Shown: positions 2,442-30,710, counted from the stretch's first letter. The stretch is 36,438 bases of DNA from Sphaeroforma arctica JP610 (GCF_001186125.1 NW_014040217.1:4083-40520), one strand, 5' to 3'. Made by a program: numbers and translations. The notes: generated from the letters alone by a model not told the origin.

Positions 2442-4427
2442 TTACTTCGAGCGGGTAGTCACAGGGGCGGTGCTCTGTACACCCACTGTGGACTCCTGCC
2501 CGGCCACGGCTGCTGGCGTGTGACGTTCTGCCAACTCGGGGTCACCTTCTTGAGCTCCGGCGGCCATAATACCTGCCTCGTCCTCGGGGTTGTTCTTCCA
2601 TTGGAACGCGAAGTAGTTGAGTGCACCTCCAAATGGTCCACCACAGAGTGGCGCTACCCAGTATAACCACTGATCGTCCCAAGAGCCTGAAACCACAGCT
2701 GATGCAAAACTACGGGCTGGATTGATTCCACATCCTGTAACAGGAATCATCATAATATGTGCTAGGAACACTGCGAAGCCAATAGCGATAGGGGCGTTGT
2801 GATGCGCGAATTCGGATCCTCTGGGGTCAACTGCAGTACCAAAAATGGTAAAGACTAGCAGGGCAGTACCAAAGAACTCTATGAAGAACGCCTATTTATA
2901 AATAAGCGGAGAGAGGGGGATAGAGAATGTGTACAGTTAGTTTACATCACGATTGTAAATGCATTTTAAGTACAACTGCTTGAAACATCGAATTTGCCAT
3001 TTGACCGTACTGTCACACCGTACTGTCACGATTAACCTTGTCAAGCTCACGATTACACATTCTCCACTGTATATCAGGCACTTATACAGCCAATGAGTGG
3101 CTATGCTCGATATGCATACTGACATCCCATAAGGTTGCAATACCCATCAATAACAACGCTTTGCCGCCAAGACGAACTGAATAGATCCGCGATGCGATCT
3201 CATTACTAACTGTGCCATGCGACCAATGAGTAATTGGTTTCATATACTCCCCAAATGATGGAGAACGCCCATTAATTACTTCACAAACCCAAATTGCAAT
3301 ACCCATCACTGACTACACTATGCCACATATATTTTCAATAAAATGCTTCCATACCTGAGCAGTGCTGGTAACATTGTGGTCATATCCGTTAGCACCAAAG
3401 GCAACAGCATCGGTAACTTGATTTGGCCACAAAGCATCCACCATGGCTACACCACATGTGGCACCCAGGGTTTGAACTATAATATACCCTATGCCTCGTA
3501 TGACATTGATCTTACCGAAACAAATCTAGGAAGAAGAGAGAGGAAAAAGAAGAAGAGTACGAGTTAGGTTTCGACACTGAATTTTATATGCGCGCCAAGA
3601 TTCATTTAACCTATGTAGAGTGATCCTTCGATAGATTGTGACCAAAGAATTGAAAACAAGCACATTGAAGAAATAGAAACGAGCGCAAATGATCACATTG
3701 AAAACCTCACGCAACTTCCAGCGGACACTCACCATAGCCATAGTAACTGCTGGATTCAGGTGACCGCCACTTATATGTGCAATCGAGAAAACCAGCACCA
3801 TAATTGACATTCCGAACGCGAAAGCGATAGTGAGCACCATGGCTGTATTGAAAGCATACTTCCCACCGACTTGTGGTTGATACGCCGGATCCACTTGTCG
3901 TTCCGTACCACTAAAAACCTGTGGCAGTAAATCCTCCTACAGATTTGTTCAAGAAAATGTCAGTTCGAGGCGCCATTGCTAGACCACGCTTGACACGTTT
4001 GCATTTTGACGGAACACGTGTTTTGCGGTTGATTTAAATAGCAAGGCACAACAAAATCGAACATAAACACGGCCACGAAGCACGAGTCTTTATTAATAAA
4101 TACAGACCACGAACTCACCACGAGCGAAGCACAAAACATTAAACCAAATAAATCACTGTCAACCAACATAAAATAGTTGACAAATGGTATAACGAGAGAA
4201 CAACGACTCCACAGGATAGCAAAGGCAGGGACATAAATTTGTATCGACAATTATTGATCTTAATAACTTACCACACTCGCTGCTAAGGCGCCGTAGAACG
4301 AGCAGACCACTCCGATGGTCACAAAGAGAAAGAAAAACATGCCAATAAATTCCGCTGAGTATGATCTTATTGCTGCGTGCCCACCCCATTTCTTGAAGGA
4401 AAGTTCTGAACTCATACCGTGACCCAT
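2442..4427 (-). CDS. Aquaporin (MIP family), 4 exons: complement(join(2442..2891,3355..3525,3733..3918,4272..4427)), 320 aa
   Basis: Motifs AEFIG (TM1), HISGGHLNPAVT, QTLGA, IEFFGT, APIAIGFAVFLAH and TGCGINPARSF...WLYWVAPL. Three GT-AG introns (donors GTAAGT, GTGAGT, GTATGG), all phase 0. Exons of 156/186/171/450 nt join into an uninterrupted frame; exon 3 is absent from the ORF track. The start Met could be the next in-frame ATG. Confidence 0.95.
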
Positions 4428-6589: not shown

Positions 6590-7098
6590 GTGGGCCCACG
6601 TAAAGCGACTTTGGCCCAAGTGCCGAACTATAAGCGTGTACACCGCAAAAAGTATCTTTACCGATACAACAGTCAAGTATTAGTTTTCGGTACACAATCT
6701 ACACCTATTGGCTTACCCCCATCCTCGCTTCTCGACCGGATTATGACGGATAACCTGGTCCTTCTCGGTATTTCGTACTCTGCGCTAACCCATTCCGTGA
6801 CACTACACGGCGCAGACCCGATCCGTACCACAGAGGTGGGTACTCTACTTAGTAGGTCAGCAAGCGAATATATGGAACATTCGAAAGTAACAGTGTTTTG
6901 TCAACACCGGCCCGAATTGACTCAGCACATATCTTCCATTGTCGACTCACTTGGCCCAAGCTTCAAACGGGAATTTACTGACCACTTCTTCCCATCAATT
7001 TTTCCTGAACCACTACAGCGACTATGAGAGCCATACCATCTGTTCATACATTGTATCATACATATTTGCCACTTTTGGAATAAACAATATTATCCCTA
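6590..7098 (+). mobile_element. 5'-truncated copy of the LINE at 27422-30710 (ORF C-terminus and 3' UTR)
   Basis: 6771-7098 aligns without gaps to 30383-30710 (328 bp), encoding the same ...DHFFPSIFPEPLQRL* peptide and ending at the same ATTATCCCTA. Left boundary uncertain. Confidence 0.8.

Positions 7099-8102: not shown

Positions 8103-8144
<42 letters not shown>
8042..8144. repeat. (TTAG)n followed by (GT)n simple repeats
   Basis: Directly visible. Confidence 0.95.
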
Positions 8145-8145
<1 letters not shown>

Positions 8146-8146
<1 letters not shown>

Positions 8147-8999
8147 TAAAATTCGGTACAATACGTTAATACGTTAAAATGTAAAATGTTAAATATGTTT
8201 AACTTCGGCCCTTGGTTATGAGCAAACGATTAGAGGATTTTAGACTGAGACTATTGTCTATATGATCTGCTCTAATCACTCACTCCTTCGGTCTAGATTT
8301 ATTTATGTTTTAGTTACTAAGACTAGATATAATTTCATTGGACGCATAGTTTACATTTCACGTCTCGAAACAATTACCTAATCAAACTAACCAATAAAGT
8401 ATATCTATGTCCAACTTAAGAAAATAGAAATAAAATCAAAACACCAAGCTGGTGCAGTATACATCTGCACCTAAACCCCATCACTTGGTACCTAGCTCCC
8501 CATCTCATTTAAGGCATAGACGGGCCCATCTAGTTGGCTGGCTAGGAGGAATCAAAACAATGTTGTCCTAAATTCTAACAACTCTGATCTTGTCCTTTTC
8601 TCAGTGGATTATCTTACTCTGAGATCCTTATTGAATTATACCATAGATTTGTACCTACAACCATTTCATGCCTGAGACCCTCTCTCATGGTACTCCCATT
8701 AATTAGAGATTCCGAAAGTGTCATTTTCAGGTGTTAGATTGGTGTCGTTCCTATTTAAAACAATTCTAATTTCAGTGAAAAAAACTAATCTATATTTGGG
8801 AAACCACCTAATTGTCCACAGTAGAGTCCCACACTCTACTGAGTACTGTCACATGTTCAGAATCCTGAATTTCTCAGTTCTTGTTCATGTCCAATTCGTT
8901 AAATGTTTGACAGTATTATAAGTATAAACGTTATTATGTTTATACGTTTATAATATACGTTACCTGTGCAACTACTATTAGGAACCCGCTATTTTTACA
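8146..8999 (-). repeat. 3' LTR of element A (~855 bp)
   Basis: Minus-strand TGTAAAAATAGCGGG starts 3 nt after a G15 tract. The far end (plus strand GTAAAATTCGGT) and internal GAGGATTTTAGACTGAGACTATTGTCTATA resemble the LTR family at 12095-12819 and 23428-23649. Confidence 0.7.
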
Positions 9000-9002
9000 T
9001 AG

Positions 9003-9017
9003 CCCCCCCCCCCCCCC
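9003..9017 (-). promoter_or_regulatory. Polypurine tract (G15) of element A
   Basis: Lies between the pol stop (9156) and the LTR TG start (8999). Confidence 0.75.
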
Positions 9018-9155
9018 TCAGCTTGAAAATTATAATGTTGGCTTATACGTGGTATTAGCACATAGACTCAAATCTCACATGAATTGTACAAGCGAAAAGA
9101 AAAGAAAATGCTGATGTTGTATTCTCTTAGACAAAGTATACTTAGACGTTATAAG

Positions 9156-10575
9156 TTACTCGGTTACTCTATTACGTTTGGGCTTTGGTCTTTGTGGTCC
9201 CCGATGGTGGATGGGACGTTTCTTAATGCCTTTTGGAGGTACGTACATTCCATGCTGTTTAAAGCTGGGAATGTATGATGTCTGTGGATAGATCTTACAC
9301 ACTTCGGGTCGCTTATTCGATGGTAAGATTGTTTCTGCATCAGCCTTATTTTTGTGTAAGCGTTTGCGAAACTTCTTATTAAAATCCTTTAGTACATCCG
9401 GATCATCAAATGCTGATGGTGGAAGATCATACTGTGCTCCATCGGCGAGCTCCGTAGTGTAATATGTCATATCCTCATGTTTGTACTTCCCTAGAATCTA
9501 CTTAAACTCGTAAGACATAAGAGGTGTTATAGCTTCACATGTGCGACGAAGGATGATTTCTGTTGTAGGGATTCGATGTGGCCCGATATTTAAGGCACTA
9601 GAGTCATCAACGTTGTTAACTTCATACGTTCCGCTCTTCTTATCGGCCACAGAGATCATAAATAATCCAATATATTTAGCCGTAAGCACAGTTGTATCGA
9701 AGTTGCGAGCCATATCGTTGACTATATTGTCTACCTCAAACTCGACTATTTTCTTGGTGTCATTCCATCGCTTTTGTCTCTTCTTAAGAGCGATATCCCT
9801 CATCTCCCTTAAGCAAGGATAGACCACATCTCTGGTCCGACACATCTTCTCTAACCATGGTAACACATGATCATCTTGAGACTCTTTGTTGAAGGGGATC
9901 TGTAATTCACTATAACGGCCCAGGAAATAGTGAGCGGGTGTTGTACCAGTGACTAAATCAGGGGATTCGCTTATCTGTGTCTGTACTCAATTGATTGAGT
10001 ACGGCCACATGTCAGCATCATCAAGTAGTGCTCCTCGCATGAACTCCTTCATCTTTCTGTGTCGTACCTCGTTCGCACCTTGTGTCTGAGGCTTGTAAGG
10101 TACACCCATCGTATGGCATGATCCCGCAACGAGTGACAGTGTCGTCATGACATCTCTTGTAAACTCACTACCGTTGTCGGAACATACAATAGCTGGCCAG
10201 CCGAAATCTGCGAAACATTTATATATGCTCTCAGCCACAGTTTGTGTTGATTTATCTTTCAGCGGATACGATACATTATATCTTGGTGCGACATCAAACA
10301 CGTGACAGACATATTATTCCTTCGTGCGTTCGGACGTGGGTAGCTCAACCAAATCAATGATATCCCGGCGCCAAGACTCGTCATCTGATACGCTGCGTAA
10401 AGGTGCGCATCCGTAGCGCTTGATCCAGTTAACTTCGCAGTTGTTACATTCGTGATACACCTGAGATATATAATGCTTGAGGTTCGGGTTTACGATTTCG
10501 TACCTCTTGCAATCTTTCTCAGTTCTAACCTTATCCATGTGCTTAAGAGCATGATTTTGTCATAACCACTTCAGA
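9156..10575 (-). pseudogene. Integrase (HHCC, DDE core, GPY/F-like) plus chromodomain-like C-terminus of element A
   Basis: NHALKH...CNNC; D(IIDL)-D(SDNG)-E(GANE); AKYIGLF; YEFK*ILGKY...YYTTELADG...PSAFDDPDVLKDF, then a basic tail. Disrupted by stops and frameshifts. Confidence 0.88.
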
Positions 10576-11010
10576 ATCGCCTCCTGTGATTTACTTATTA
10601 CATTGAAATCAGGAGGTGAGGATTCCCGCGTCATCACCTGGACTCGAAGACTCGTCTTGTCCAATCTCGCCTAAAGCTTCTATATCGTGAATCCGACTGA
10701 TGTTTGTTCTATCCATTAGTTGAGTCACATGATCATATACCTCGGGAAAGTCATTCATCAATTGCTTAAGCAATCCAGTTTCGGCTTGGTATGCAGTTTC
10801 CCTGTCAGACCGTATCTTGTTGTAGAAGGCTTTCGCTAGTGTTGTGCTCCTCGTTGATTCCTTTAAATTTGGCTGTATCTCGGTAACACATACTGCAGGT
10901 GCTTGTGTTGTCCCAGTCTCTGATTGAGACTTAGGATTCAAGAGTGGAATCTTGGATTCCTCAACCTTCTGTTTGAAAGTCTCGGATGGTGTCCACTTGG
11001 TTGTTCCAAC

Positions 11011-11415
11011 TGGACCTATTCGACATATAATAGTATGTCGCCAAAGCGTCTTTTGGACTGCACGGATACCCTGGTAGGGAAAAGTATCTACCTCTCTATC
11101 CACATAGATCGGCTCACATTGAATCATTGAGATCAACTGTGGTAGCCATGTATCTGAGTGTCTTAGGGAACAACACAACGTGATGGTAGCATCTTGAATA
11201 TGTACATAATTTAGCAACGGTGGTATTAATAGCTATGGAGGATTTGCCCAGGCATTCTCGTGAGACAAGTCTATCTGGAATCCGTCTCCTTCCGGATGTT
11301 CCAGTGACCAGTACCTCGGCAGTTGCGCATTATGATGAGCGGCAAATATATCTATGGTATGTGGTCCATATATGTTGTCAGCGATCTTAAACCACCTAGG
11401 ATTGGCCATTCAATC
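11011..11415 (-). pseudogene. Dam-like DNA N6-adenine methyltransferase domain in pol of element A
   Basis: One frame reads D*MANPRWFKIADNIYGPHTIDIFAAHHNAQLPRYWSLEHPEGDGFQIDLSHENAWANPP*LLIPPLLNYVHIQDATITLC...WLPQL...HTIICRIGP. Both stops (11410-12 TGA, 11233-35 TAG) are one change from TGG and align with Trp in copy B. Confidence 0.85.
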
Positions 11416-12094
11416 TGTAGCTAGTAACTCCCTAACCATCTTGTTATAGTCTGGTACGAAGCGAGACAACATGTCGGTAAATGATTGTGAATATCCGGTA
11501 TATGTGTTATGCCGAAAGAAAATTTTGCGATCGTGTCATGCCACCGACTGACTAACTGTGAGTTAGGTTTCATGTTCTTTAGGTGTTGCAATGACTTCTG
11601 ATCACATAGCACGTTAAAGTGCGTGCCATATGGATAGTCCTTAAAATGAGTGAGTACAGTAACAATAGCCAAAAGCTCTTGTTGCACGGTTGGGTAATTG
11701 ATCTGAGACGAATTCATGGCCCTGCTAAAGAACTGTACATATCATGGTTTCCCATCAATCATTTGATACAAGACGCCACCGAGTGCCATGTCGGACGCGT
11801 CTGTTGCTACCATGAATGGAATATCATCCTTTGGTGGCTGGACTATTGGCGCCTGTTGACCCACTATTTTGAGCTGCTTAAATGCGTCATCACAGTCTTT
11901 GGTCCACAGTGCGCCTAGTTTGCCTCTATGAAATCTCAAATGTCCAAAGGGCTTTAAATAACTTACCAGGTATGGTACTCCGTCAGATGAAAAGTTGCCG
12001 AATCCGCACATGTTGTTGACATCCTTACCCGTGGTAGGAGTTCTCCAGTCTAGCAAGTGGTCGACCTTCCCGGGATCGATCATAATTCCATCCC

Positions 12095-12819
12095 TGTAAG
12101 ATTCGGTCTATCAAGGCGATATTAACGCCTTAGACTAATTAAACGCGTAGGTAAAATTTAAGTATCGTGACATTCAAAGTAAATTAAAAAAATGAGTCTT
12201 TTAGTAAAGTTAGGTATGCCTCGTGAAAACAGCATTACTCTGAGGGATTGTGAGGCTGAGACATTGCCTATATATAATCCTCTCAGTACTGTTTCCGCCG
12301 AAGGGATTTTATTTAGTGTTTCGTTGTCGCTCTATTAGAAACTATAGTATGTTTCGTTGGGGCGAATCCGAGAGACTCATAAAATCCTATCTTTAGAAAA
12401 CAATTAAATTTGAATTTAAAAAAAAAAGACTCTTGATGTCCTTAGTTATTGCATTAACCAATATCGTGCAACTTATCAAGAATTACCGACTTAGCCTTCA
12501 TCAGACTGGCACATCTGGTTGGCTGATCGGAGGATAAACTAGGTAACGTTAATAGTCCCTAGAAATCTATGTTCGGTTGAGCCATCTCGCTACCGAAGTA
12601 TTCAGATATAAATAGATTTGGAAAGTAAATATAGTTATATTAATAGAACTAGACCAAATCTTATGTTTGGTATTTTACAGGGGCCTTTTTAATGGCCTTA
12701 TCCAAATATCTGATATGTAAAATGGAAAGATATTAATTAATAAAACCGTCAAAAACCATATAGTTTACGTACTGCTTAAGTTGTAACATAGAGTCTAGTG
12801 TGGAGGCCCGGCTATTACA
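12095..12819 (-). mobile_element. Solo LTR (725 bp) inserted in the RT of element A
   Basis: TGTAA...TTACA termini; 4-bp TSD TCCC (12091-94, 12820-23). Removing it restores LGYRVSGDGIMIDPGK. 12095-12315 is homologous to the reverse complement of 23428-23649. Confidence 0.92.
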
Positions 12820-15475
12820 TCCCCGGATACTCGATAACCCAACAACTGAATCTCGTTAACACCGAAGTGACATTTATTACTGTTGACCTTAAAGTTGTGC
12901 TTGTCGAGTCTATCTAGAACCTCTCGCACAACCCTTTCGTGCTCCTCTTTGGTTTTGGTGAATACCACAATGTCATCAAGTATACTTGTACATTGTCCAT
13001 TTCCCTAAACAAGTTTTAGGCAGGTAACATGTGTAACCCAAAAGGGGCGCCTTTGAACGAATATTGCTGACCCTCCCAGGTAAAGGTGAATACTTCCGGT
13101 GTGGTTTGTAGATCTTCATCTGGTGGTAGCCCTGCTTCAGGTCGATAGTGGAGAATATCTTAGCTCCCTCCATGCGCCTGAGTAGTTCGTTTATCCTTGG
13201 TAAGTGAAAAGTGTGCGTCGGTATCAATATCCAAACACACCCGAACTTTCTTCAGCGTCCCGTCAGAATTGAATTGGTCGACGGCTAAAAGCGCTAGGTT
13301 GACGGGAGTCGGCTCGTATTTGACTGTGATCACTCCGTCATCTAACCATGCTTTAACCTGTTCTCGTACGACCTGCTCATGACGCCATGCAACATAGTTA
13401 CGTGTAGGACAATTCAGCTTCGAGAAATCTACTCTCGTCAGGTATAGACTAACGTATCCGTTATTGAATTTGAACTTAGACCAGTCAGAGATCTGAATCT
13501 TGTCGTTCTCGAAAATCAAGTCCTTGAGTTTCTCTGTGAAGTGAGGGATCATCTTCTTCACAGTCTTCGAAGGTTTATATACCGGTTTCAACAAGTTGTC
13601 GTCCGACTGATCCTTCTGTGGTTCAATGTTAGTAGGTAAGCCTGTAATTGTGATACCTAATGACAATAAATCACTCATACCTACTATGAGATCATAGTCT
13701 AGTGAAGTGTTATATATGACTGCCTTAGTAACTATAGTACGTTGGTCTGTCAATGTAAACCTAAGATCGATTGCCATTTCTCTGCAAGTGATCTCTCTTT
13801 CATCAGCCAGTTTCAACATAGCTGGCTTTGACTTTCGAGTTACGTCTGTCATTTTACAAAATCTAGAGGATATACATGAAATTTGCGAGCCCGGATCCAG
13901 CAACGCTTTATTTCTTGTCCGTTAACTCGTATATCTAGGATTACACGATCGTCTTGAGGTGCGTCCTTTTGTCTTAGTGACAAGACCCGGTATGTTTGTC
14001 ACTTAACTTCAACTTTTGGTTTCACCTTGCATGTATGCTTGTGGTAATCTCCAGTCCCTGTACAGTCGGCACACTTCTCGATAAAGTGCTTACACTTTTC
14101 TGCGTGCCTTCCATTCCATCTGCCATTCGGCTCATGTTGGGTCATTCGCCAATTGCAATCAGTCTCACTACAGTTCTTGACCTCCCTAAGCCTGGGCTTA
14201 GGGTTACCTGCCGGCGGTCCATTTCTTTTGGTCTGGTTATCCTTAGGGATGACATTGTTCTTGTTGCTTTCAGAACCATTATAAACACAAAATACATAAT
14301 ATCCCTATAGTCACTAGTAGTAAGGGGCTATACCTCTTGGAATCAAAGACGTAGATCTAAAACGAGTATGAACACACTACTCTGTGTCAATAAGAGATAC
14401 AAATAAACCCTGATAACAACAGTAACACTACTGAATGTTAGCGTCGCAATAAAACAAGAAACCCCCACACACCATGGGACAACACATCCTCACACTCCAT
14501 GAGGTAGAAATAAAAGGCCAAGAAATCACATCCAGTAAGAACAAAGTAAAAGACTAAAGACTAGAGTAATGCAACAACAAGAACAGCATAGGTACAAACA
14601 AACTAATGAGAACACCACTCAGTAATTAGTTAGAACATATTGTAAATTTGGTATGGACACTCCAGTCCTAAATCACAAGGCGATATACAAGATTACTGTA
14701 GCTACACATAGATTACAAGGATAAACCAACACTAGAAGACAATAGTGTAGCAAAACTAACGGCCAGAAGCCAAATTTCACACAAAAATCCGGACACATGG
14801 ATAACAGTGACAACGTAAAGAATACATGTACACGTGCCAATAACAAAGACTACCAGGAATCAGATAACACATATCGAAATTCAAACATACTAGGCATACC
14901 AATACGTTGTACATCACACACGGCAGCGGGTATAAGCTGACGTATGCACACCACACAAAGCACAGACCACAAAAGATATCTGATAATATCTGTATAAACG
15001 TATACAAGTAGTATTACAGGTGTACAATGAATACTACAAGGTATATAAACATAGGAGGAAGTTCGGAACACCACCGAGACTCAAATAAAAATGAAATATA
15101 ATAGAAAATTTGTAAAACCAAATTACAGGTTTACAAAACCAAAAACCAAGTCACGAGAGAAACTAGGTTTACAACCAATAAACCATCATAAACCCAAGTT
15201 TATCATCTCAAACCAAAAATTCTTCAAATAAACCCAGGTAACTCGAACACGAGCAATTCAAGCCACACAAGCACAAGGCCCTACAATCAGCACGGACACC
15301 GCATGCCACACGGGGACGCAGAAACAGGTAATAAACAAATCTGATTCAACCAATTTACTGATGCATTACAAATATATCCTAACCACACCCCACACGCAGA
15401 ACAGTCAATGACGTCTGCACCATACCAACTCACCAATTATGACACAACAGTCAGTGCACCAAGTACAAAACTAAC

Positions 15476-16419
15476 ATGGGAAACACGACTACAAAATTTA
15501 GAGGAGTCAAAACGACCACAACAAGATGCCAATGTGGCACAATATCAAGAAAAATGCACGCAGCATTTGATCGCAAATATCAAGAGAAGTATGTACACTT
15601 CCAAGAGGGGAACATTGTGATGATTCGGTACCTAGGTGAAATGAATAAAATGGCAGCACTATATGGAGGACCATACAAGGTAGCAAGCAAAGAGGGCAAC
15701 GTATATTTCGTCCGTAACCTTGATGGCACTCGAGCCCCCGAATATCCTAACTCGGTCATTGATGAGCTAATTGGTTTAGTCAAGAAGGCTAGTGAATCAG
15801 AAGGTTTCACTACCAACAATCAAATCTAACAATCAGAAGAGACTCAATTCTCTTCGATACTAGACCACAGAGAATCCACAAGAGGTGGAGGAACCCAGGA
15901 CTACCTATTGCAATGGACAGATGGAGAGCGCACCTGGACACAGGAATCAGACATCGCAGATCCTGATATTCTTACGATATACCGACAGCGTGAACGACGC
16001 AAGCGAAGACAATCCAGGCCGAAGCAGTCAACAGCAATCAGCATTGATGAAAGATCAGCGAGCAACAGGCAGCGCACAAGGCGGGGAACTTAGCCAAGTT
16101 TCATTGACACCAAAGGACACTCCCACTTTTCTCACCTTGAAGCATACTCTGCCCACACACCAGAGGGATAAGAACCAAAGACTCAGTTGAGAGCCACCGT
16201 TGAGATGCGTTTTCCCAAGCCAAGTTGTAATCAACCGAGAGCACAGGTCAAGACTGACTCTGATGAGCGTAGTAGAGTACTCCTGTTATTTAGTATAAAT
16301 TAATTTATTAAGTAATATGTTAGAATGGATAATGGTGGCAGGTTTTTCATCTTATGACCCCTAAGGGACAAGTTTTTCCCTGTACAAAACCACCAACCTC
16401 TAGATAATCGAGTCCTACA
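15476..16419 (+). mobile_element. 3' end of chromovirus-type element C: integrase GPY/F tail, chromodomain, PPT, 3' LTR
   Basis: FQEGNIVMIR...ALYGGPYKV; SILDHRE...QDYLLQWTDGERTWTQESDIADPDILTIYRQ; PPT AAGGCGGGGAAC at ~16078-16089; LTR ~16090-16419 ending CTACA. Confidence 0.85.
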
Positions 16420-16462
16420 AGATGTCACTTTTTACTCCTACGCCGGCTAAGAGTTGGGGGGC

Positions 16463-16776
16463 TGTAGCATCCAGGGGCCAGATTATCAGAAAAGCCAATC
16501 CTACACCCAAAACCCAGGATTATCAAATACTGAGTTTTGGATCCAGGATCCAATATTTCTGATGATAGAGTGATCAGAAATATAGCGGGATTACCGGCAG
16601 ATGATACCGGGACCCCCGCGTGTGAGAGAAACACTTAAGTAAATATTGAGTCTAGTGTAGAAAATACTAAACACATATAAAGACTCAATGCGAGTGCTTC
16701 AGCTGGGGACTTAACCTAGCTGAGAGATTCGCACTTGAGAAGAGGTCTATTGTTTCCTTTACTCTCAAACTCTACA
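16463..16776 (+). repeat. 3' LTR of family D (314 bp) with upstream PPT
   Basis: TGTAG...CTACA termini; preceded by AAGAGTTGGGGGGC; homologous to 26521-26843. Confidence 0.85.
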
Positions 16777-17147
16777 TACTTCGCGCCAATGCATATTATC
16801 GGATGGAAGCCTTTACGTAGGGTATCCTGGCCCAAACACTGTCCACACTGCCGCTTAATTTATGTAGCCAGTTCTAATGCCCCCGGCCAAACGTGTCCGT
16901 TCTGTTGTAACTATTGGACAGTATCGGCAGCGCCGTGGTGGCCTTGCTCATGCTGTGCCTGTGTGAGTTGTGTACGCCGTTGTTGTTCCACTGGTGTGGC
17001 ATTCGCAAAGGCCGGTTGTGCCCCTCACTAGTTAACGCCACGGAAATATCTCGTGCCGTATCCAAACACTGATGGTATGGTGTGTGTCGATGTTCGACAT
17101 AACCTAATCTTTGTGTAAAGCTCTCGGCTAGCTGGAATCCTGACGGC

Positions 17148-17548
17148 GGCCCCACTCGTGCAACGACCGTGTGCCCCGACGACGTCTTTCCACAGGCATA
17201 CTTTGCATACTTTAGAAATGTATGCGGGGTCCGGGGTACTAACACTGGCTTGGCTTGCAATAATTATTTGAAAAGGTCAAACCATGGTGCGCGAGGAGTC
17301 CAAAGTAAGCACGCCGTCGCTATAGCCCCGTCCGCTTTGATCTTCCGAAGCACGCGGTGTATCAACCTCCACGGCGGGTTCATCCACCCGTCCACCATCG
17401 CCCAGTTATGATCAAACGTACCGTCGTGTTCGTACTTTGTTCAAAACCTAGGAAGCTGCGCGTTGTGGGGTGCTGCGAACACGTTTATGTTATTGTGTCC
17501 AAAGACACGTTGTGCTTGTTCGAAGTAGCTGGGAAATAATTGCCAACA
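17148..17548 (-). pseudogene. Dam-like DNA N6-adenine methyltransferase domain in pol of element B
   Basis: WQLFPSYFEQAQRVFGHNNINVFAAPHNAQLPRF*TKYEHDGTFDHNWAMVDGWMNPPWRLIHRVLRKIKADGAIATACLLWTPRAPWFDLFK*...HTVVARVGP; intact NPPW at 17369-17380; in frame with RH. Confidence 0.9.
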
Positions 17549-17815
17549 GTCTGCATACAGGATCTCTGGCATCTCTGTTTCCGCGGTCCCTTCATGTATG
17601 CGACTCAGCATATCCGGCAGGACATTCCTCTCCCCCGGTATATGTGAAATGGTGTAGCTAAAGGGCGCTATGATGTGGTGCCACCTTTGTAGCATCGGAT
17701 TAAGCTTCAGTTGGGTATTCATATATACTGTGCTTTGTGATCCATAAACACCGCAAAGCGCTGGCCGTCGAGGTAGTCACGGAAGTGTGTCAACCTGTAG
17801 ACTAACGCTAGTAGT

Positions 17816-18114
17816 TCCCACTTTTCTCACCTTGAAGCATGCTCTGCCCACACACCAGAGGGATAAGAACCAAAGACTCAGTTGAGAGCCACCGTTGAGA
17901 TGCGTTTTCCCAAGCCAAGTTGTAATCAACCGAGAGCACAGGTCAAGACTGACTCTGATGAGCGTGGTAGAGTACTCCTGTTATTTAGTATAAATTAATT
18001 TAATAAGTAATATGTTAGAATGGAAAATGGTGGCAGGTTTTTCATCTTATGACCCCTAAGGGACAAGTTTTTCCCTGTACAAAACCACCAACCTCTAGAT
18101 AATCTAGTCCTATA
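17816..18114 (+). repeat. 5'-truncated copy of the element C LTR sitting in place of the RT of element B
   Basis: 17816-18112 matches 16121-16417 (297 bp, about five mismatches by eye). Confidence 0.92.
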
Positions 18115-20150
18115 AACCCTTCAACCACTTCTGTACCTGTTCATCGACATACGGTAACCACCGCTCGGGTACAAAGTTGCGTGTCGATCGTCTCATGCTC
18201 ATAACCTGCTCGCGTGTCACCGGTATCGCTACTTCACTCCCCTCTAAGCGGCAACGTGCATTGTCTACAATGTCGGCGTTCGCTTCTAACACTGCGACCA
18301 GCCTTGTCCGTCCTCCGTCGGGTTCGGTGGTGTTGGGGGCTTGACGCCGAGCCATAGGTGTAAGGAGGTCATCTAGTTCCGTTGGGTCGATGGGTGCGAG
18401 TGGTGACTGAATTCCGCCAATGTATACCCGAAGGTCCGTCATCATGTCCAGCCCTAGTCTAATATCGATGCTATCAGGGAGATTCATCAATTCGAACGAT
18501 CCATTGATGATCTCTGAGCGATAACGTATCGGTAGCACTTCTGTTGTCCCCAGGCGAGGAGTGCGTACCGCTCTATCAGTCAAATATATATATAAATCGC
18601 TGGGTACTGGTGTAATTGGTCGTCCTAAGAGGTCTGCGGATGCTCGTGCGATGCAACTACGGCTTGCACCTGTATCTACCAACGCTCGGAATGTACGACC
18701 ATTCACCTGCAATTGTATATAGACACGATTGTCGGAGGACAGCAGTGGGTCTTTTATTGCCATCACTGTCTTCAATGGATGCGTAAACGTAAATATCGGA
18801 CACCCTGAGGTCTCAGTGTTTCTTTGTTATCGGAGTCCATTGGGACTGCGATGTATCCGTTTGTGTATCCGCGGCCTGCTCGATGTCATTGGTTAGGATG
18901 GAGTGTATATGTAACTCCGTGGCCGACTGGCTATCGTGCCCCGGTCCGTCCTCTTGTGTGAGTACAGTAACCTGCGGTGTCGTCGTAGTTGAGGTCGACT
19001 GTCGGCTTGGGTATTGTGGTGGTTGGTGACCGGACCCTTGTGGTGGTGTAAATCGTTGTCCCATTGTAACCTCTCTCTGCTGCTGACTAGTGTCTGACGT
19101 CCGTGTTCTCACGTCCTGCCCCCCAGGTTGGGCCGCCCGATGATGATGGCAGCGCGGTATGTGTCGCAACCCTGGTGGTGCTTGTGCTCGGCAACCGTTG
19201 CACGTCGTTGGGTTAGTTGTTGGAGTCGGACGCTGTTGCCATTATTGCTGCTGACGCTATACTATGTGCGGGCTAGGTCTACTATTCGTCGTCTCCCCCC
19301 GGGCTGTGCTCCCATTGTGACCTCGACGGATGACTAAACGTTGAGTCGAACGAATCTGGGCCTCCTGGATATCCAGACTTAGCAACTGTAGTAATTCACG
19401 AGTCTCCATGAGCTGCCACTTTGGATGTAACTGTAACGTGCGCTCATATGTCCGGGATCCTAAGGTGTCCTCCAACAATTGAACTATGCAGTGGTTGAGC
19501 AATTTTTGCTTAAAGTCTGCGTCGGTCTGACAACGCTCGTGTGCCCGACGATGATTCTCCATAAGGTATGTCATCTGTTTCATCACTGGAACATTACTAA
19601 GCTTCTGGTGTCCCTTTTCTCTAGTTTGCGAAATGTGGGATCCACCGTGGCTTGAGTATCGTGTGAACAGATTTGTGTTCTTTGGAGTTCTGGTGTCCAT
19701 GCAACTAAACGTTGGTGATTGAATTTTATATAATTGAGTGTAGATTGCTCGGCTCTAAAGTGGTTCAACACCTTATAGAACCAACGGAAGCTCCATGCCT
19801 CATCTAGCCCCGAAATTTGCGTGTTCTTAAGGGCTTTACGTAGTGCCCCTTTAGTGTCGCGCTCCATAATGTTGCTGAGTTTGTACCGGTTAGAGGGCCT
19901 CTCAGGCCAACTACGCGGCTCGTGTGGTTCTGGTTTGTTCGCTGGTCGAGAGTCGTATGTTGCTCTCAAAGTCTCAAGTACACCCCGTAGAGCCACCGCT
20001 CGTAGTAAATCGTTCTTCTCCACTGCACTATAGAGCTCTTCTGACCGCTTGAGCATCCGGGCATGCAAGGCCTGGCGGTCAGCCGATATACTGTCCGGAG
20101 TAAGAGGTGTGATCTGTTGAGCTAGACGACGTCGCTTGTCTGCTGGCGTT

Positions 20151-21568
20151 ACTTGATTCGACAGAGTGCGTTCGAGCACTCGACGTGCTTCCAGACTATC
20201 GCCCATAGCTTCCTACACGAACTGTTGTCCCTGACGTTGTGCCTGGATAGACATCTCCATATTATCTCGGCGGATGTCTAGCGCATTCCTACCGTGTGGG
20301 TTCTGCGTAACTCGTTGTTGTTCTTGTACAAAGCTCTGAGGTGATAACGGTTCCTGTCGTGTATCATCCTCCTACTGATCCGACAACGTATACCCTACCC
20401 CGTGACGAGTCTGGTCCGCACCTTTGATGCGGAATTCGAGATTGTCCGGCGGCGGGGATTTCGCCCGTTGTAAGCGTTGTAACCGTCGATCGTATATCTC
20501 CAATAATGATTGCTGTTGTCGAAGTAGATTTGTCAGCTGTTCCGGTGTGTCATTGTCTCTCCCTCGGCTATGTCGGTTTTCTTGTCGACGATGACGCGGG
20601 TGCTTGCCCCCAGCAGCTCTTGAGACCTCTCGAGGAGTTGTACCTACTTGATGTGCAGTCTGCGATGCCGAACGTGTGCCTCTAACGGTTTAGGGTTACG
20701 TTGGTCCCTGTCTGTGAAATCCACATCACTAGGAGTTGTTATCCGCTCATCTCCTTGTTGTTGCACTGTTAGGGTCTGCTGAAGTATTGCATTGTTAGTA
20801 CGATGTTCCGCCTCCAGATCGTCCGACATGTCTCCACTAGCTGACATAACTTGATTCGACGGAGTGCGTCCGAGCATTCGACGTGCCATCAGACTATCGC
20901 CCATAGCTTCCTGCACGAACTGTTGTTGTGGTCAGATATACGATTTAGGGTTATTATGGTTTTTGTGGTTTGGTATACGATTTTGGGTTATTAATGTTTA
21001 TTTATGGATCGGTCATAAACTCAGTTTAGGGCTCTGATCCGAATACGTACATGCGCTAATCCTGTCGTGTAACATCCTCCTACTGATCCGACGACGTATA
21101 CCCTACCCCGTGACGAGTCTGGTCCGCACCTTTGATGCGGAATTCGAGATTGTCCGGCGGTGGGGATTTTGCCCGTTGTAAGCGTTGTAACCGTCGATCG
21201 TATATCTCCAATAATGATTGCTATTGTCGAAGTAGATTTGTCAGCTGTTCCTGTGTGTTACTGTCTCTCCCTCGGCTATGTTGTTTCCCTTGTCGGCGAT
21301 GACCCGGGCGCTTGCCTCCGGCAGCTCTTGAGACCTCTCGAGGAGTTGTACCTACTTGATGCGCAGTCTGCGATGCCGAACGTGTGCCTCTTAACGGTTC
21401 AGGGTTACGTTGGTCCCTGTCTGTAAAATCCACATCACTGGGAGTTGTTATCTGCCCATTTCGTTGTTGTTGCACTGTTAGGGTCCGCTGAAGTATTACT
21501 TCGTTAGGGATAATATTATTTATTAGTGCGATGTTCCGCCTCCAGATCGTCCAACATGTCTCCACTAG
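20151..21568. repeat. ~700-bp tandem duplication in the gag-like region of element B
   Basis: 20151-20228 matches 20849-20926 and 20353-20840 matches 21061-21568; a ~130-bp middle segment differs. Confidence 0.9.
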
Positions 21569-22770
21569 TGTCTGCGCGATCCTGGGTGCGACGTCTAAAA
21601 CCCCGTTGATGAATGTCATCTCTCTCGCGTTGTTCTGGCAACAGATGTTGTTGTCGTCGACTCTGTTTAATATTGGTTATGGTGGCCCTGAGTTATGGCT
21701 GTCGATTAATAAACGATGTGACGTTATCTTTGCCTCTCTTCCGCCTTATCATGTCATCGCTATTCGAATAACCTGAAGCCCTGTTGACGGTACATACATC
21801 GTCTACGTCTTGCTCTATTTCGTAGTATCGACGCATCGGCGTTGTCCCTGCATAGGCAATCGTGCCTTAAGCTAATCCCGGGTCTCGTTGTGGTTGCTCT
21901 TTTACTTTTCCAACTAACCCCTGCTCTTGGCTCACGTGCCACTGCTCTCTCGGTAACTCCATGCTCCCAACATCCGTCTTCCATCTCATCTAAGCACATG
22001 TTCTTTACTCCTTTCAAAGCTCATCTAATCCCCCAACGATTGTCGCCTCTAACCTCTCGTAGCTAATCAGTTTGTCCGCCAATATCACCCGTCGTTCTCG
22101 TCTGGGATCCTGGACTTACGCAAGCACTTGTCTCTTCTAACTCGCTTGGACGGCGCACCCCCACATTGAACGCACACACAAATTGCCATTGCTTTGTATT
22201 CACGTACACATTGATGTCACTTGCTTGCAGGTTCATCACTCATGGTACTAACGTATTTCACATTATTGTGCTCTATACTGGTGTATGAGCTTACTGTGTG
22301 TGCAACTTACTTCCTGTCTGTTTAACACTTGCTGTAATGCACATCTCTCCGTGTTCCTGTCTTTGCATGGATATCTGTTACCGTGAAATCTTACCCATGT
22401 CATACTGCCACTCCGATTATGTCTGACCACTATTTCTTATTTCAATTTTTTTACTTGAGTACTATATATGGTGCATCTTACATATATATCCCTATTTGAC
22501 ATTTTCTGACGTGTACGTCCACATTCCTTGTTGTCTTGGTGATCTTCCAACTTTTACACCTATCTTTTTTATTTATTATTTGTGTTCCACTTCGTCTTCT
22601 GTAATCTGTCATCTTTCTTCCTTGTTCTCTTCAACCTTCCTGGTGTGGCTCGGATCTGGCGAAGGTGTTAGTGCCCATAACGGTGCGGTTATTTCTTGAT
22701 GTGGTGTGGTTCGGAGTCTCCATGTCGATGTAAAGGTACATACTCTTTGGGTTTGTTCTATCATATCATC

Positions 22771-23427
22771 GCTGGAGTCTACGGCATGAAGAAACTCTGG
22801 CGGATCATCAAACGATCTGCGAAAGGGTTAAAAGTTCCTACTGACCATATTGCACTCCTTGCGATGCGGAAGTAAGATGGCTTCACTGATGACCCGCGCG
22901 GTCGTCGGGAGCAGCGTTGGCAGGAGGTCTACCGAGATATCGATATACGTATATACCACGTTCGGGGTAAAGGCAATAGGATAGCCGACATGTTTTCTCG
23001 GTTGACTCATGTAGTTGACTACGAAATGCAGCTAGCTCGGAAGCCAGCGAAAAGCACAGCGAAGCGTGTTCACTGGTCCCTAGTTGATACGTCCACCCCC
23101 AGAACGACAGAGTATAAATTGGCAGTGATGTGGTTCCGCCTGGCGGATGCCCGCTTCGGCCCCCACCATGCTGACGGATCTGCTCTTCCAGGAAGTCAAT
23201 AAATGATTCCCTTCTATTCTCCTCCTCTGAAGGGAGGGGTATGGGCGCTTTGCTGGCGCACTCTCAACTTATGGCTCAATCCTCCGTGGGAGGATTTAGA
23301 GCGTCTTTTTCTCAAGGTCGTATCCGATAAGGTGGTGGGCGTGACGGTCTGTTGCATTGGTTTTCGGTGATACACATGTTCCTCTTGGCATTGCACATAG
23401 TGATACCCCCCGCAGATTGAGTCCAGA
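22771..23427 (+). pseudogene. Retrotransposon pol fragment F: RNase H C-half plus Dam-like MTase
   Basis: One frame: AGVYGMKKLWR...VPTDHIALL...QRWQEVYRDIDIRIYHVRGKGNRIADMFSRL...EYKLAVMWFRLADARFGPHHADGSALPGSQ*MIPFYS...WRTLNLWLNPPWEDLERLFLKVV; NPPW at 23278-23289. Confidence 0.82.
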
Positions 23428-26400
23428 TAAATAAAATTTTCCTTCGGCGAAAACAGTATTGAGAAGATTGTATATAGGCAATGTCTCAGCTTCACAATCC
23501 CTCAGAGTATTGCTGTTTTCACGAGATATACCCAACTTTAATAAAAGACTCATTTCGTTTATTTTACTTTGAATTTTTTGAATTTAAACCGTTTTACGCG
23601 TTTATTTACTCTAAGTCGTTAACACCGCCTTGTGAGACCGAAATTTACACATTTTAAAGTTATTAAAGGTATTAACTACGCAGACTACTTGAAAGTAGTG
23701 GTGGTTAAATATCACGAAATTTTTCTTAACGTAGCTATTCCTTAAGAGAATAGACGAAAATCTCAATTAACATTTTATGACTAAGAAGGACAATACACCT
23801 TCTAAGAAGCAAAAGGCCGAAAAGAAGAAGATGGAGAGAGATGCAGCCATCGCCGCCGCCGCATCCACTGCCGCTGCCGATGAAGTGAATTGAGCCGTAG
23901 CCGAAGCTATTGTCGCTGGCACTAACAGCCAAGACAATGCGTCGGACAAGGGTGAGACCACTCCATCAAGAGAGAAGTCTCCCGAAGAAAGAGCCCGAGG
24001 GCCAAATATTGCCTCAACTTTGAAGCTTGCATTTACGAAGCCAAGAAGTGAGATACAGGGTGTGTCTAAGGACACCCCAGCTAATCCTTATAAGGAATCT
24101 CAGAAAGAAGTGTCACTGATTGCGGTAGAAGATTACGAACCTCAGAGGGTACCGCCAAAGGAACATGAAGAGGAGAAAAGCTCGAATAGCCAACCCGAAT
24201 CAAAGTCCAAGCCCACCGAGTCAACTCGCAGAAGCATGTTAACTGCTGAAAATACTGAACTCAAGAATCAATTATCTGCTCTTAAACAGAGTCTAGCCAT
24301 TGAACACGTAGATCGCATGTATGGATCTGGAGAAAACCCAGAGCGCTTTCACGAACACCTTTCTCCTGGAACCACAAAAGCTCTGCAGAAATGGACTGAA
24401 TGCAAATTAGAGAAGCCGCCTTCAAAAAGGTAGAAATCTGAGCGCAAACCCCGTAGCCGGCGAACCGGAACAATCAATCTGGCAATTAGCTTACGGGGGT
24501 TCACCCCCAGAGGAACAGGCGTGTTATACGCCCGAATAATCTCCAGGACATGAGTCCCCTATACTCGAGGGAATTATAGACCACGAAACAGGGAAGAATA
24601 CTCCGCCGGAAATTTCTAACTGGGGAGATGCCCCACGCCGGAAACCAAAGTCCACGGGACAGATAATCCCTATGCGTGGTGTATCTCAGATCGTGATACC
24701 TTCGGAGGTCTTCACTAATGATCAACGCAAACTATCCACAATGGATTGCGGCCTCCATCAACCCGTAGAAAACTTGCAATCTGATGAGGTGACGGAGCTT
24801 AATAAGACAGTCGACGACTACACCATTCAGATGGAGATTGCACACGATCGCCATGATGCTGAAGACGTAGTATACTATGCTAGTTTGATCGCCATTAAAA
24901 AAATACTGCAGGCTCAACGTAGGCGAGACCACCAACACAACCAGAAGTATAAGGAAATGATCAGACAACTTAAGTCAAACTGGGAAGCCAGCAGTCAAAA
25001 GTCTGAGTTTATCAATAACCATGATCTCGATACTTTGACCCGCACGCTGAATGCATTTGCAGTGATGTTGGAGACGAATGATGCTGCTCCACATCAATGG
25101 ATATCTGTACTTATGCAGTCGTTTGATCCTATAGGATCAAGCTACTTCATCCTTCGAAGACATCATGATGAATTAGGCCACTGCCCTGACTGACCGGCGG
25201 TTTATTGGTTAGTAACGATTTTATTAAGCAAGGACACGCGCAGCCCATGACTAAGTTCAATCTTAGCCGAACCAGCACCAAACACGCCCATATATAGTTA
25301 TATATTGAAGCTCGACGCGGACCTAAAACGCCCTGATATAAAGAAGAACGACATGCCGCGATGGTACGAGTTTCTGCCTATGTATGTGTTCTGTAAGAAC
25401 ATCGGAAACAATGTCCGAGAGAGTTTGTATACTGGGGCTCGTCGCAAGTATGCAAACGAATCTCGTGATATGGGACACTAGTCAAAGGTTTATTTGACTC
25501 AGCTAAATTGGGATCGGTTCTATCAGACTGTATCCTCCGTAAACCCTCCCGGACGAGTGACCTCTCGGGAGAAGGCGGCGAGAGAATCTCGGTAGACCTC
25601 AAACAGGAGGACCACTCAGACACGCCCTCGTGAGACTACTCAGAATACACGCCCTGTTAAGAAGGTGCGTGCCGCGCCTAAGGGCCCTGCGTAAAAGCAT
25701 ATCAAGAAGTGTGCGAATGACAATTGCGGATATAATATGTACCAATTTACCCCTGACGATTATTGGAACGAAAATCACGCACCTGCTTGCACACATTATC
25801 TCGCAAAGTGCAATAAGTGCGAGAAGACCAATGGCTATCACACTATCACACTAAGTCTTGCGACAAGGAGCCCGACATTAAGTTGGAGTGAAGGTACTAC
25901 CGGGTACAATCGATACGAAGACAATACAACAACCCCTTAAATGAACGTGTAATTATCCCTGTATATTGCAACGGAAATAAAAATCTTGCACTGATTGATC
26001 CTGGTTCAGAAATCTCTTGTATATCCGATCGCTTTTCGTTGATGAAAGATATCGAACGGCGAACGCAAACCACTCATCTTATTTCAGCAGATGAGAATAC
26101 TTCTAAGTGTGAACCATGGCCATCGATGATAAAATCTCCTTGGCCGATAATATAAATATCACCACTCAAGCTGTGATACTTAAGATGTTACAGAAACACT
26201 AAATTATAGTCGGAATGAGCAATCTGTTCACATTAGGTATAACTGTAACTGAGCTACCGAACAACATCGATCCATTAAAAGATCAATAAGACGATAATTG
26301 TTTAAAACCATATCACCACCGTCTGACACAGCCAAGGCATTATTGCCTGACTTTGTAAATAAGATTATGAATATTATTTTAATAAATCTGAAGAGTAAGA

Positions 26401-26520
26401 TTACTGACTGGTAAGTTCCGTTTTAACGACAGATACGTCAGCCTTGACTTAACCAAGGTAGATTTTACCCCGCTGAAGTGTGCCTCTAAGAACTATGTAT
26501 CCTGGAGACACGAGGCTGTA
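23428..26520 (+). mobile_element. 5' part of Ty3/gypsy element E (relative of A): partial 5' LTR (23428-23649), gag pseudogene (23777-25891), protease and linker
   Basis: LTR ends TTTACA at 23649; ATG at 23777; PR ALIDPGSEISCISDRF versus A ALLDPGSQISCISSRF; NYVSWRHE versus A NYVAWRHE; cut off by an LTR of family D. Confidence 0.88.
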
Positions 26521-26843
26521 TGTACCATCTAGGGACCAGATTATCAAAAAGCCAATCCAAATCCCAAATGCCAGAATAATCAAATACTGAGTTTTGGAAT
26601 TGGGATTGGAATATTTTTGATATTAGAGTCATCAGAAATATTAGCGATAGAATCGGTAAGCTATACTAGGACTCCCGCGTGTGAGAGAAGCACTCAAGTA
26701 AATTCTGAGTCTAGTGAAAACACAAATAAAGACTCAGTTTGGTTCACTCAGACTAAGGACTTTTCCTAGCTGAGATAGCCGTATTTAAGAGGTCTGTTGT
26801 ATCCATTTGTCTCGTACCTTTCAGCTACTCTCCAAACTCTACA
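26521..26843 (+). repeat. LTR of family D, second diverged copy (323 bp)
   Basis: TGTA...TACA termini; collinear similarity to 16463-16776; no TSD. Confidence 0.85.
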
Positions 26844-30639: not shown

Positions 30640-30710
30640 GAGCCATACCATAAGTTCATACATTGTATCATACATACTTGCCATTTTTGAAATAAATAAT
30701 ATTATCCCTA
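27422..30710 (+). mobile_element. Non-LTR retrotransposon (LINE) with APE endonuclease and RT
   Basis: Long open frame; the 3' end is defined by the end of similarity with the second copy at 7098. Confidence 0.9.

What the first reader, a model, noticed from the sequence alone, without database searches (positions are those of the whole stretch)
9156..13998. Integrase-type Ty3/gypsy retrotransposon whose Pol carries a Dam-like N6-adenine methyltransferase between RNase H and integrase
Seen: after the RNase H end, element A has ~135 codons (11011-11415) reading WF...GPHTIDIFA..HNAQLPRYW...DGF..D..ENAWANPP[W]LL...L...ATITL...W, then a linker, HHCC/DDE integrase, chromodomain-like tail, PPT and a TG-initiated LTR. 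Known: (D/N)PP(Y/W/F) is catalytic motif IV of amino-methyltransferases, and this phage-Dam-like signature is what DIRS tyrosine-recombinase retroelements carry after RNase H. Canonical gypsy Pol goes directly from RH to INT. Inference: a gypsy lineage packages its own adenine MTase, possibly to methylate its cDNA or new insertions. I cannot confirm from here that this is unreported.
Basis: partly seen in the sequence, partly recalled or inferred. Interest (0 to 1): 0.93.

Follow-up and report, generated by a model that had tools for sequence, protein, structure and literature searches.

The report
Decayed methylase-carrying gypsy retrotransposon, already described
This is a broken copy of a gypsy-type jumping gene of the protist Sphaeroforma arctica whose enzyme chain carries an adenine-methyltransferase domain that likely marks the element's own DNA or RNA, a real design that a May 2026 preprint already described in this same species.

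Summary
Element A (minus strand) reads gag, protease, RT, RNase H, Dam-like domain, linker, DDE integrase, chromo-like tail, PPT, LTR. It has stops, frameshifts and a solo LTR inside RT. The domain hits Pfam Dam (E 8e-5), folds with pLDDT 93, and matches N6-adenine methyltransferases; the best solved match is the RNA cap methylase PCIF1/CAPAM (Z 10.7). An intact 1376-aa relative carries all Pol domains in one frame with NPPW. It is 64% identical in the Dam domain, as in RT/RNase H, against 37% in the linker. RT groups with integrase-bearing elements, so a secondary DIRS insertion is rejected. A named S. arctica gene model lies in this window. The preprint bioRxiv 10.64898/2026.05.21.726589 describes these 'DAM-LTRs' in S. 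arctica, with raised 6mA but a negative E. coli assay. This scan also noted such elements before on other DNA (for example Rozella). Two small additions: a cryptic chromodomain in a lineage reported to lack one, and PCIF1 as nearest solved fold, which keeps an RNA substrate open. Catalysis is not shown.

The parts
13999..14304 (-). C-terminal part of gag with a Cys/His-rich motif; gag N-terminus and 5' LTR not found in the window
   Evidence: translation; 32% to gag of element C, E 1e-13; no Pfam hit; family-like cover falls off near 14300-14500
13660..13921 (-). aspartic protease (ALLDPGS)
   Evidence: weak Pfam protease hits, E 0.006-0.09; 41% over 49 aa to intact relative P0006
12820..13540 (-). 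reverse transcriptase, N-terminal part through the LDD motif, with frameshifts
   Evidence: RVT_1 E 4e-12; best PDB matches Ty3 RT 4OL8 and 7Q5B; 62-69% to P0006
12095..12819 (.). solo LTR of another family inserted in RT; TGTAA...TTACA ends, 4-bp target duplication TCCC
   Evidence: sequence; many different flanks at both ends in public contigs; partial second copy at 23428-23649
11490..12094 (-). RT connection and RNase H; one stop at 11744, frameshift near 11490
   Evidence: PF17917 E 5e-18, PF17919 E 2e-12; Ty3 best PDB match E 4e-11; 67-69% to P0006
11002..11421 (-). Dam-like (PF05869/PCIF1-type) N6-adenine methyltransferase domain; stops at 11412 and 11235 (directly after NPP)
   Evidence: model pLDDT 93; fold matches; 64% over 137 aa to P0006
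10612..11001 (-). variable linker in frame with the Dam domain; frameshift to integrase near 10625
   Evidence: 37% over 91 aa to P0006
9516..10637 (-). integrase: HHCC finger, DDE core, SH3-like region; stops at 10562, 10316, 9989
   Evidence: rve E 5.7e-9; PDB integrase matches; stops; 79% over 298 aa to S. arctica SARC_04662 including the tail
9366..9515 (-). degenerate chromodomain-like tail, with a stop at 9500; the ORF ends at 9156
   Evidence: no Pfam hit; ESM Atlas on the matching part of SARC_04662: Chromo 0.92, TM 0.72-0.79; weak session-profile hit E 0.046
9003..9019 (-). polypurine tract
   Evidence: sequence
8144..8999 (-). 3' LTR, TG-initiated; far end approximate, abuts microsatellites and an assembly gap
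   Evidence: sequence; repeat-level cover across the stretch; no second copy in the window
16782..17776 (-). element B, a second and divergent family: RNase H end, Dam (17138-17575, NPPW kept, two stops elsewhere), linker, integrase HHCC finger
   Evidence: PF05869 E 5.3e-7, above cut-off; PF17921 E 2.4e-4; 33% to A's domain, score 186 vs best of 500 shuffles 49; S. arctica relatives SARC_07150 and SARC_09702
22876..23370 (+). element E, a third divergent fragment: RNase H end and the first part of a Dam domain (NPPW)
   Evidence: tblastn and shuffles; no Pfam hit; 23203-23367 is exon 1 of the S. arctica gene model SARC_05388

Best explanation
The locus is a dead, 5'-truncated copy of an ichthyosporean DAM-LTR, a Ty3/gypsy retrotransposon whose Pol runs protease, RT, RNase H, Dam-like methyltransferase, integrase, chromo-like tail; in intact members that domain likely N6-methylates adenines of the element's own cDNA or RNA:DNA intermediate. 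Shown here: domain order, fold, retention of NPP(W/F) and conservation of the domain on a par with RT and RNase H. Inferred: the domain is packaged with Pol and acts during reverse transcription, and the mark would then be maintained by the host AMT1 at ApT, keeping new insertions in permissive chromatin (the preprint's model). This copy cannot make the protein because of stops, frameshifts and an LTR insertion. Confidence is about 0.97 in the identity and about 0.45 in the DNA/hybrid-methylation mechanism.
For: Domain hits. AF2 model on a 97-sequence alignment, pLDDT 93, pTM 0.88. Fold matches: phage N6-adenine methyltransferases, TM 0.71-0.77, E about 1e-7, and PCIF1/CAPAM, Z 10.7, rmsd 3.1, 133 aligned. 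Intact relative P0006 has RT, RNase H, Dam and rve in one 1376-aa frame; identity to A is 64% in Dam, 62-69% in RT/RNase H, 37% in the linker. 16 of 149 Dam hits carry an integrase, 14 of these with NPP(W/F). 14 of 14 LTR-type database rows in A's Dam clade keep NPP(W/F). RT lies on the integrase-bearing side of a branch with SH-aLRT 99. The Dam domains of A and B fall in a clade (99) with three Abeoforma whisleri proteins. The host is S. arctica. The preprint reports more methylated insertions and higher expression for DAM-LTRs in S. arctica.
Against: The preprint's expression of DAM-LTR and DIRS domains in dam- E. coli gave no rise in 6mA. Iyer et al. (PMC4738411, passages only) call the related DIRS1 domains likely inactive. 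The closest solved structure is an RNA methylase, and RNA methylases (DIMT1, KsgA, Erm; Z 8-9) score level with or above E. coli Dam (8.1) and T4 Dam (7.9). The 6mA enrichment is a correlation and could follow from transcription. This copy's own Pfam score is below the cut-off. No activity was tested here and no dN/dS was computed.
Confidence: 0.45

Rival explanations
1. The domain is an RNA adenine methylase of the PCIF1/CAPAM type that would mark the element's genomic RNA (cap-adjacent or internal m6A) or its primer, helping stability, packaging or priming; the 6mA seen on insertions is then a by-product of higher transcription.
For: The top six Foldseek PDB hits are all PCIF1/CAPAM (E 7e-5 to 4e-3), as is the top VIA hit, 1.6 Z above the next. 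Viral PCIF1-like proteins are in the BFVD list. B's domain weakly hits PF12237, E 0.2. Iyer et al. place DIRS methylases in the PCIF1 clade. The negative DNA assay in E. coli fits. The preprint's main text never mentions PCIF1.
Against: Phage DNA N6-adenine methyltransferases match better than any PCIF1 (E 5e-8 vs 7e-5); no phage Dam of this family appeared among the solved-structure hits, so PCIF1 may top the list only because it is the nearest solved member. The domain lacks PCIF1's WW and helical domains (140 aa vs about 480 solved residues). Cap-binding residues were not checked.
Confidence: 0.25
2. The domain is conserved as a non-catalytic nucleic-acid- or SAM-binding module, or as a structural part of the RT-RNase H unit, and methylates nothing.
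For: Negative E. coli assay; Iyer et al.'s view of DIRS1 domains; earlier notes of this scan report gypsy lineages in Rozella that keep the domain without the catalytic motif (unchecked).
Against: 14 of 14 relatives in A's clade keep NPP(W/F), and 8 of those 14 also match my DxFA-type pattern, which is what catalytic constraint predicts.
Confidence: 0.22
3. A DIRS fragment inserted secondarily into an ordinary gypsy element, or the region is a chimera of nested repeats or an assembly artefact.
For: The window is a nest of broken elements with a solo LTR inside A's RT; frameshifts lie at both sides of the Dam-linker frame; no single public contig bridged RNase H to integrase among those listed.
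Against: P0006 is collinear with A from protease to tail in one frame; many other intact ORFs have the same order; SARC_09702 joins Dam to the integrase finger in one frame; three divergent RNase H-Dam junctions occur in the window; contig cover is even across RNase H, Dam, linker and integrase.
Confidence: 0.02

Closest known systems
Ichthyosporean DAM-LTR lineage (Pirum gemmata, Abeoforma whisleri, Sphaeroforma arctica); Fernandez-Moreno et al., bioRxiv 10.64898/2026.05.21.726589, 22 May 2026
   Same: Ty3/gypsy RT and integrase with a DIRS-type Dam domain carrying Asn-Pro-Pro; same host species; A's Dam groups with Abeoforma proteins.
   Different: The preprint says this lineage lacks chromodomains; here a degenerate one is supported. 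Its main text gives the Dam position only for another clade, and I could not see its figures or supplements, which may show the order for this lineage.
DIRS1-type tyrosine-recombinase retrotransposons with RT-RNase H-MT ORF
   Same: Homologous methyltransferase directly after RNase H; many of the 149 hits have this layout.
   Different: A has a protease, a DDE integrase, PPT and TG-LTR; its RT is separated from 42 DIRS-layout RTs by a long branch with support 99; no tyrosine recombinase hit in 99 of 99 ORFs scanned.
PCIF1/CAPAM cap-specific adenosine N6-methyltransferase (PDB 6IRW, 6IRX)
   Same: Closest solved fold, over the whole domain.
   Different: 12-16% identity; no WW or helical domain; substrate of the retroelement domain unknown.
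Phage-type DNA N6-adenine methyltransferases (Pfam PF05869, PHROG 111)
   Same: Best profile and predicted-structure matches.
   Different: Stand-alone phage proteins; here fused inside Pol, and aligned only over the N-terminal 60-70 profile positions in this copy.
EpiLTRs and Chlorophyta DAM-chromoviruses (same preprint)
   Same: Dam plus chromodomain in one LTR element.
   Different: No cytosine methyltransferase here; the chromodomain is degenerate; different host group.

Membership tests
Ichthyosporean DAM-LTR | Ty3/gypsy-type RT | tested here: met
   Ty3 is the best PDB match for RT and RNase H; RT on the integrase-bearing side, SH-aLRT 99, in a quick tree where A's row filled 31% of columns. 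No Repbase reference set was available.
Ichthyosporean DAM-LTR | DDE integrase downstream of RNase H | tested here: met
   rve E 5.7e-9, above cut-off; HHCC finger visible
Ichthyosporean DAM-LTR | Dam (PF05869) domain within Pol | tested here: met
   E 7.7e-5 in A (below cut-off), 5.3e-7 in B (above); in frame in P0006; fold confirmed
Ichthyosporean DAM-LTR | Asn-Pro-Pro catalytic triplet | tested here: met
   NPP present in A, followed by a stop; NPP(W/F) in 14 of 14 clade relatives
Ichthyosporean DAM-LTR | Ichthyosporean host and Dam clade shared with Abeoforma elements | tested here: met
   S. arctica gene model SARC_05388 maps into the window, exon 1 at 100%; 17-row Dam clade, support 99, includes three A. 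whisleri proteins
Ichthyosporean DAM-LTR | No chromodomain (as stated in the preprint) | tested here: inconclusive
   Met by a Pfam scan like the preprint's (no hit), but contradicted by ESM Atlas on SARC_04662 and by a session profile that finds chromo-like tails in Abeoforma P0010 (E 1e-6) and weakly in A (E 0.046)
Ichthyosporean DAM-LTR | Paired LTRs with target-site duplication | tested here: inconclusive
   Only the 3' LTR and PPT are present; no second copy in the window
Ichthyosporean DAM-LTR | Raised 6mA and transcription of insertions | not testable with these tools
   Reported for S. arctica in the preprint; no methylation data here
DIRS retrotransposon | Tyrosine recombinase instead of DDE integrase | tested here: not met
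   DDE integrase present; no recombinase hit in 99 of 99 stop-free ORFs of 62 aa or more in 8.1-27.3 kb, a weak test for broken genes
DIRS retrotransposon | RT in the DIRS clade | tested here: not met
   the DIRS label is my inference from layout (RT and terminal Dam, no integrase), not an annotation
DIRS retrotransposon | Inverted terminal repeats with internal complementary region | not tested
   5' end missing; a PPT and TG-LTR are seen instead
Chromovirus | Chromodomain at the integrase C-terminus | tested here: inconclusive
   degenerate, below Pfam detection
Chromovirus | RT in the chromovirus clade | not tested
EpiLTR | Additional cytosine methyltransferase | tested here: not met
   no such Pfam hit in 99 ORFs or in P0006
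PCIF1/CAPAM | Methyltransferase core fold | tested here: met
   Z 10.7, rmsd 3.1, 133 aligned
PCIF1/CAPAM | WW and helical domains | tested here: not met
   no such Pfam hit in P0006 or the other long relatives scanned; the domain is 140 aa between RNase H and linker
PCIF1/CAPAM | m6Am activity on capped RNA | not testable with these tools
   needs an assay

The most novel reading that the evidence does not exclude
Ichthyosporean DAM-LTRs carry a PCIF1/CAPAM-like enzyme that methylates the element's own RNA or RNA:DNA intermediate rather than double-stranded DNA, which would explain the failed E. coli test, and they pair it with a cryptic short-loop chromodomain missed by Pfam: a retrotransposon that writes its own epitranscriptomic mark and reads host chromatin.
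Probability: 0.2. Interest if true: 0.7.

Novelty: already known. Interest (0 to 1): 0.2.

Why it matters
As a locus it is one dead copy of a family described months ago in this very species, so it adds little. The class matters: a transposon that brings its own adenine methylase may exploit the host's activating 6mA mark, and its substrate is still unknown. Two points here can help that question. The nearest solved fold is an RNA cap methylase, which argues for testing RNA and hybrid substrates. The lineage seems to keep a degenerate chromodomain, so the published split into chromodomain and non-chromodomain DAM-LTRs may partly reflect a detection threshold. An intact relative (P0006) is available as an assay candidate.

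Tried and rejected
No whole genome is held for this window, so no genome-wide copy census or dN/dS. The word-based search for longer proteins with A's Dam domain found none among 11 candidates; the full HMMER search later found them, so that blank was a sensitivity limit. Scans of viral and metagenome contigs gave no confirmed locus among 40 and 101 pattern matches. Sequence searches of the PDB with the Dam domain gave nothing, nor did the RT-connection piece. Several Pfam references were in the wrong frame; the Dam and chromodomain pieces were redone. No listed sequencing run is on record as RNA: no evidence on expression either way. A closer read-level look at the two stop codons was not obtained, so their state in other S. 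arctica copies of family A is open; the intact motif is shown from a protein relative instead. ESM Atlas on SARC_07150 gave Dam-containing clusters at 0.87-0.88, a lead only. Dinucleotide and GATC counts showed nothing usable. No tRNA gene in the window; no PBS could be sought because the 5' end is missing. Element E's Dam sits on a long branch and could not be placed. Rejected: secondary DIRS insertion, assembly chimera, DIRS membership, EpiLTR membership. Literature searches; only the one preprint holds the term DAM-LTR.
Full report
Observation. The minus strand of 9156-14304 holds a decayed LTR retrotransposon, element A. In order: the end of gag, a protease (weak Pfam hits), RT (RVT_1 E 4e-12), RNase H (E 5e-18), the 140-codon segment in question, a linker of about 130 codons, an HHCC/DDE integrase (rve E 5.7e-9), a tail, a G-run PPT at 9003-9019 and a TG-initiated LTR from 8999. 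The copy is dead. The Dam frame has stops at 11412 and 11235, RNase H one and integrase four, there are frameshifts on both sides of the Dam-linker frame, and a 725-bp solo LTR with a 4-bp target duplication splits RT. No 5' LTR is in the window.

The domain. Read with X at the stops, the segment hits Pfam Dam PF05869 (E 7.7e-5, below the cut-off) and PHROG 111. A full HMMER search with a 4-row alignment found 3290 proteins at E up to 0.001 and listed the best 150. An alignment of 97 sequences gave a model with pLDDT 93. Its best solved matches are PCIF1/CAPAM (six top Foldseek rows; Z 10.7, rmsd 3.1, 133 aligned), followed by other SAM-dependent methylases including E. coli Dam (Z 8.1). Its best predicted viral matches are phage N6-adenine methyltransferases (TM 0.71-0.77).

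Part of the element, not a passenger. P0006, an unnamed 1376-aa protein, has RT, RNase H, Dam and rve in one frame and is A's closest intact relative in every Pol domain. Identity to A is 69% in RT-N, 62% in RT-C, 69% in RNase H, 64% in Dam, 53% in the integrase core, 41% in protease and 37% in the linker, so Dam is constrained like RT. Of 149 hits examined, 16 carry an integrase, 14 of them with NPP(W/F). Two more divergent RNase H-Dam junctions lie in this window: element B (17138-17575, above the Pfam cut-off, followed by an integrase finger) and element E (22876-23370). A and B are 33% identical in Dam (score 186, best of 500 shuffles 49), while my protease, linker and finger comparisons did not beat shuffles. 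Public contigs from 4 of 4 runs cover RNase H, Dam, linker and integrase at a similar level and far above the flank; these depths are not copy numbers, and no listed contig bridges the whole junction.

Gypsy, not DIRS. RT and RNase H match Ty3 best among solved structures. In a quick RT tree of 60 rows (59 of 68 RT-bearing hits; 9 short ones dropped), A's 53-aa fragment falls with P0006 on the side holding all 13 integrase-bearing rows, split from 42 DIRS-layout rows with SH-aLRT 99. The careful search did not finish, and the DIRS label is my inference from layout. In a Dam tree of 55 rows (30 of 51 DIRS-layout rows used), A and B sit in a 17-row clade (support 99) with three Abeoforma whisleri proteins; E is unplaced. 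No tyrosine recombinase or cytosine methylase was found in 99 of 99 ORFs scanned, a weak test on broken genes.

Host. The word-based searches returned only Sphaeroforma arctica JP610 proteins, and the gene model SARC_05388 maps into this window: residues 1-55 at 100% to 23203-23367, and the rest to 23894-24430 (94% over a hit that overruns the splice junction). The window is therefore S. arctica DNA, an ichthyosporean.

What is known. The preprint 10.64898/2026.05.21.726589 (main text read whole; figures and supplements not seen) claims the first identification of Dam domains in non-DIRS LTR retrotransposons, defines five lineages and names an ichthyosporean one in P. gemmata, A. whisleri and S. 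arctica. It reports more 6mA-marked insertions and higher expression for these elements, proposes methylation of RNA-DNA intermediates followed by AMT1 maintenance, and found no activity in dam- E. coli. Iyer et al. (PMC4738411, three passages seen) place the DIRS domain in the PCIF1 clade and think it inactive. The other papers were seen only as search listings. Earlier notes of this scan record such elements in other genomes; I did not check their sequences, and I had found the preprint before reading them.

What this locus adds. First, the preprint says the ichthyosporean lineage lacks chromodomains. Pfam agrees for A. However, the matching part of the 79%-identical SARC_04662 scores 0.92 to Chromo clusters in the ESM Atlas, with TM 0.72-0.79. 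A profile from three Pfam-positive chromodomains finds a tail in Abeoforma P0010 at E 1e-6; a second round finds most other clade members, but A and SARC_04662 only at E about 0.04 and P0006's tail not at all. A degenerate chromodomain is thus likely for the clade and weaker for family A. Second, the nearest solved fold is an RNA cap methylase, which the preprint's main text does not mention.

Mechanism. Shown: order, fold, motif and constraint. Inferred: the domain travels in the particle with Pol and methylates the element's nucleic acid. I put 0.45 on cDNA or hybrid methylation that seeds host 6mA, 0.25 on RNA methylation, 0.22 on a non-catalytic role and 0.02 on an insertion or artefact.

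Verdict. Real, correctly read by the first stage, and already known, in this species. Interest 0.2.

Noticed in passing
window 16782-22000 (-): Element B, a second DAM-LTR family (gag, protease, RNase H end, Dam, integrase finger). Most of RT is missing and its place is taken by a 300-bp stretch (17816-18115) that is 98% identical to 16121-16420; rearrangement or assembly error. The gag region has an internal duplication (20352-20840 vs 21060-21568, 90%).
   Followed up: partly
window 22876-23370 (+): Element E, a third RNase H-Dam fragment, cut by a partial copy of the solo-LTR family near 23428. The annotation SARC_05388 splices its Dam piece to the gag-region ORF of element C, which looks like a false gene model.
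   Followed up: partly
window 15460-16777 (+): Element D: 3' end of a gypsy element with a clearer chromodomain (PF00385 E 7.8e-4), PPT and a 316-bp LTR (16462-16777, TGTAG...CTACA). Its tail is 60% identical to P0011, an intact DAM-LTR polyprotein, so it probably belongs to a Dam-carrying family too.
   Followed up: partly
window 23700-26520 (+): Element C: gag, protease and start of RT related to A (45-50%), truncated by a sequence 75% similar to D's LTR region at 26521-26813.
   Followed up: partly
window 12095-12819: Solo LTR with a 4-bp target duplication; the deepest-covered stretch in four public runs, with many different flanks, so probably a very abundant family.
   Followed up: partly
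window 27419-30400 (+): 993-aa open frame with endonuclease and RT domains, a LINE-type element; its 3' part (30383-30710) recurs at 6771-7098 (95%) and, inverted, at 35908-36009.
   Followed up: no
window 2442-4420 (-): Spliced aquaporin (MIP, PF00230) gene, the only clear host gene seen.
   Followed up: no
proteins P0046 and P0049: Unnamed polyproteins with endonuclease, Dam, RT, RNase H and integrase finger in one frame (P0046 also with a protease), with Dam before RT; they resemble the mixed Euglena elements of the preprint.
   Followed up: no
window 35000-35900 (+): Broken frames reading like a hAT-type DNA transposase (my recollection of the motifs, not tested).
   Followed up: no
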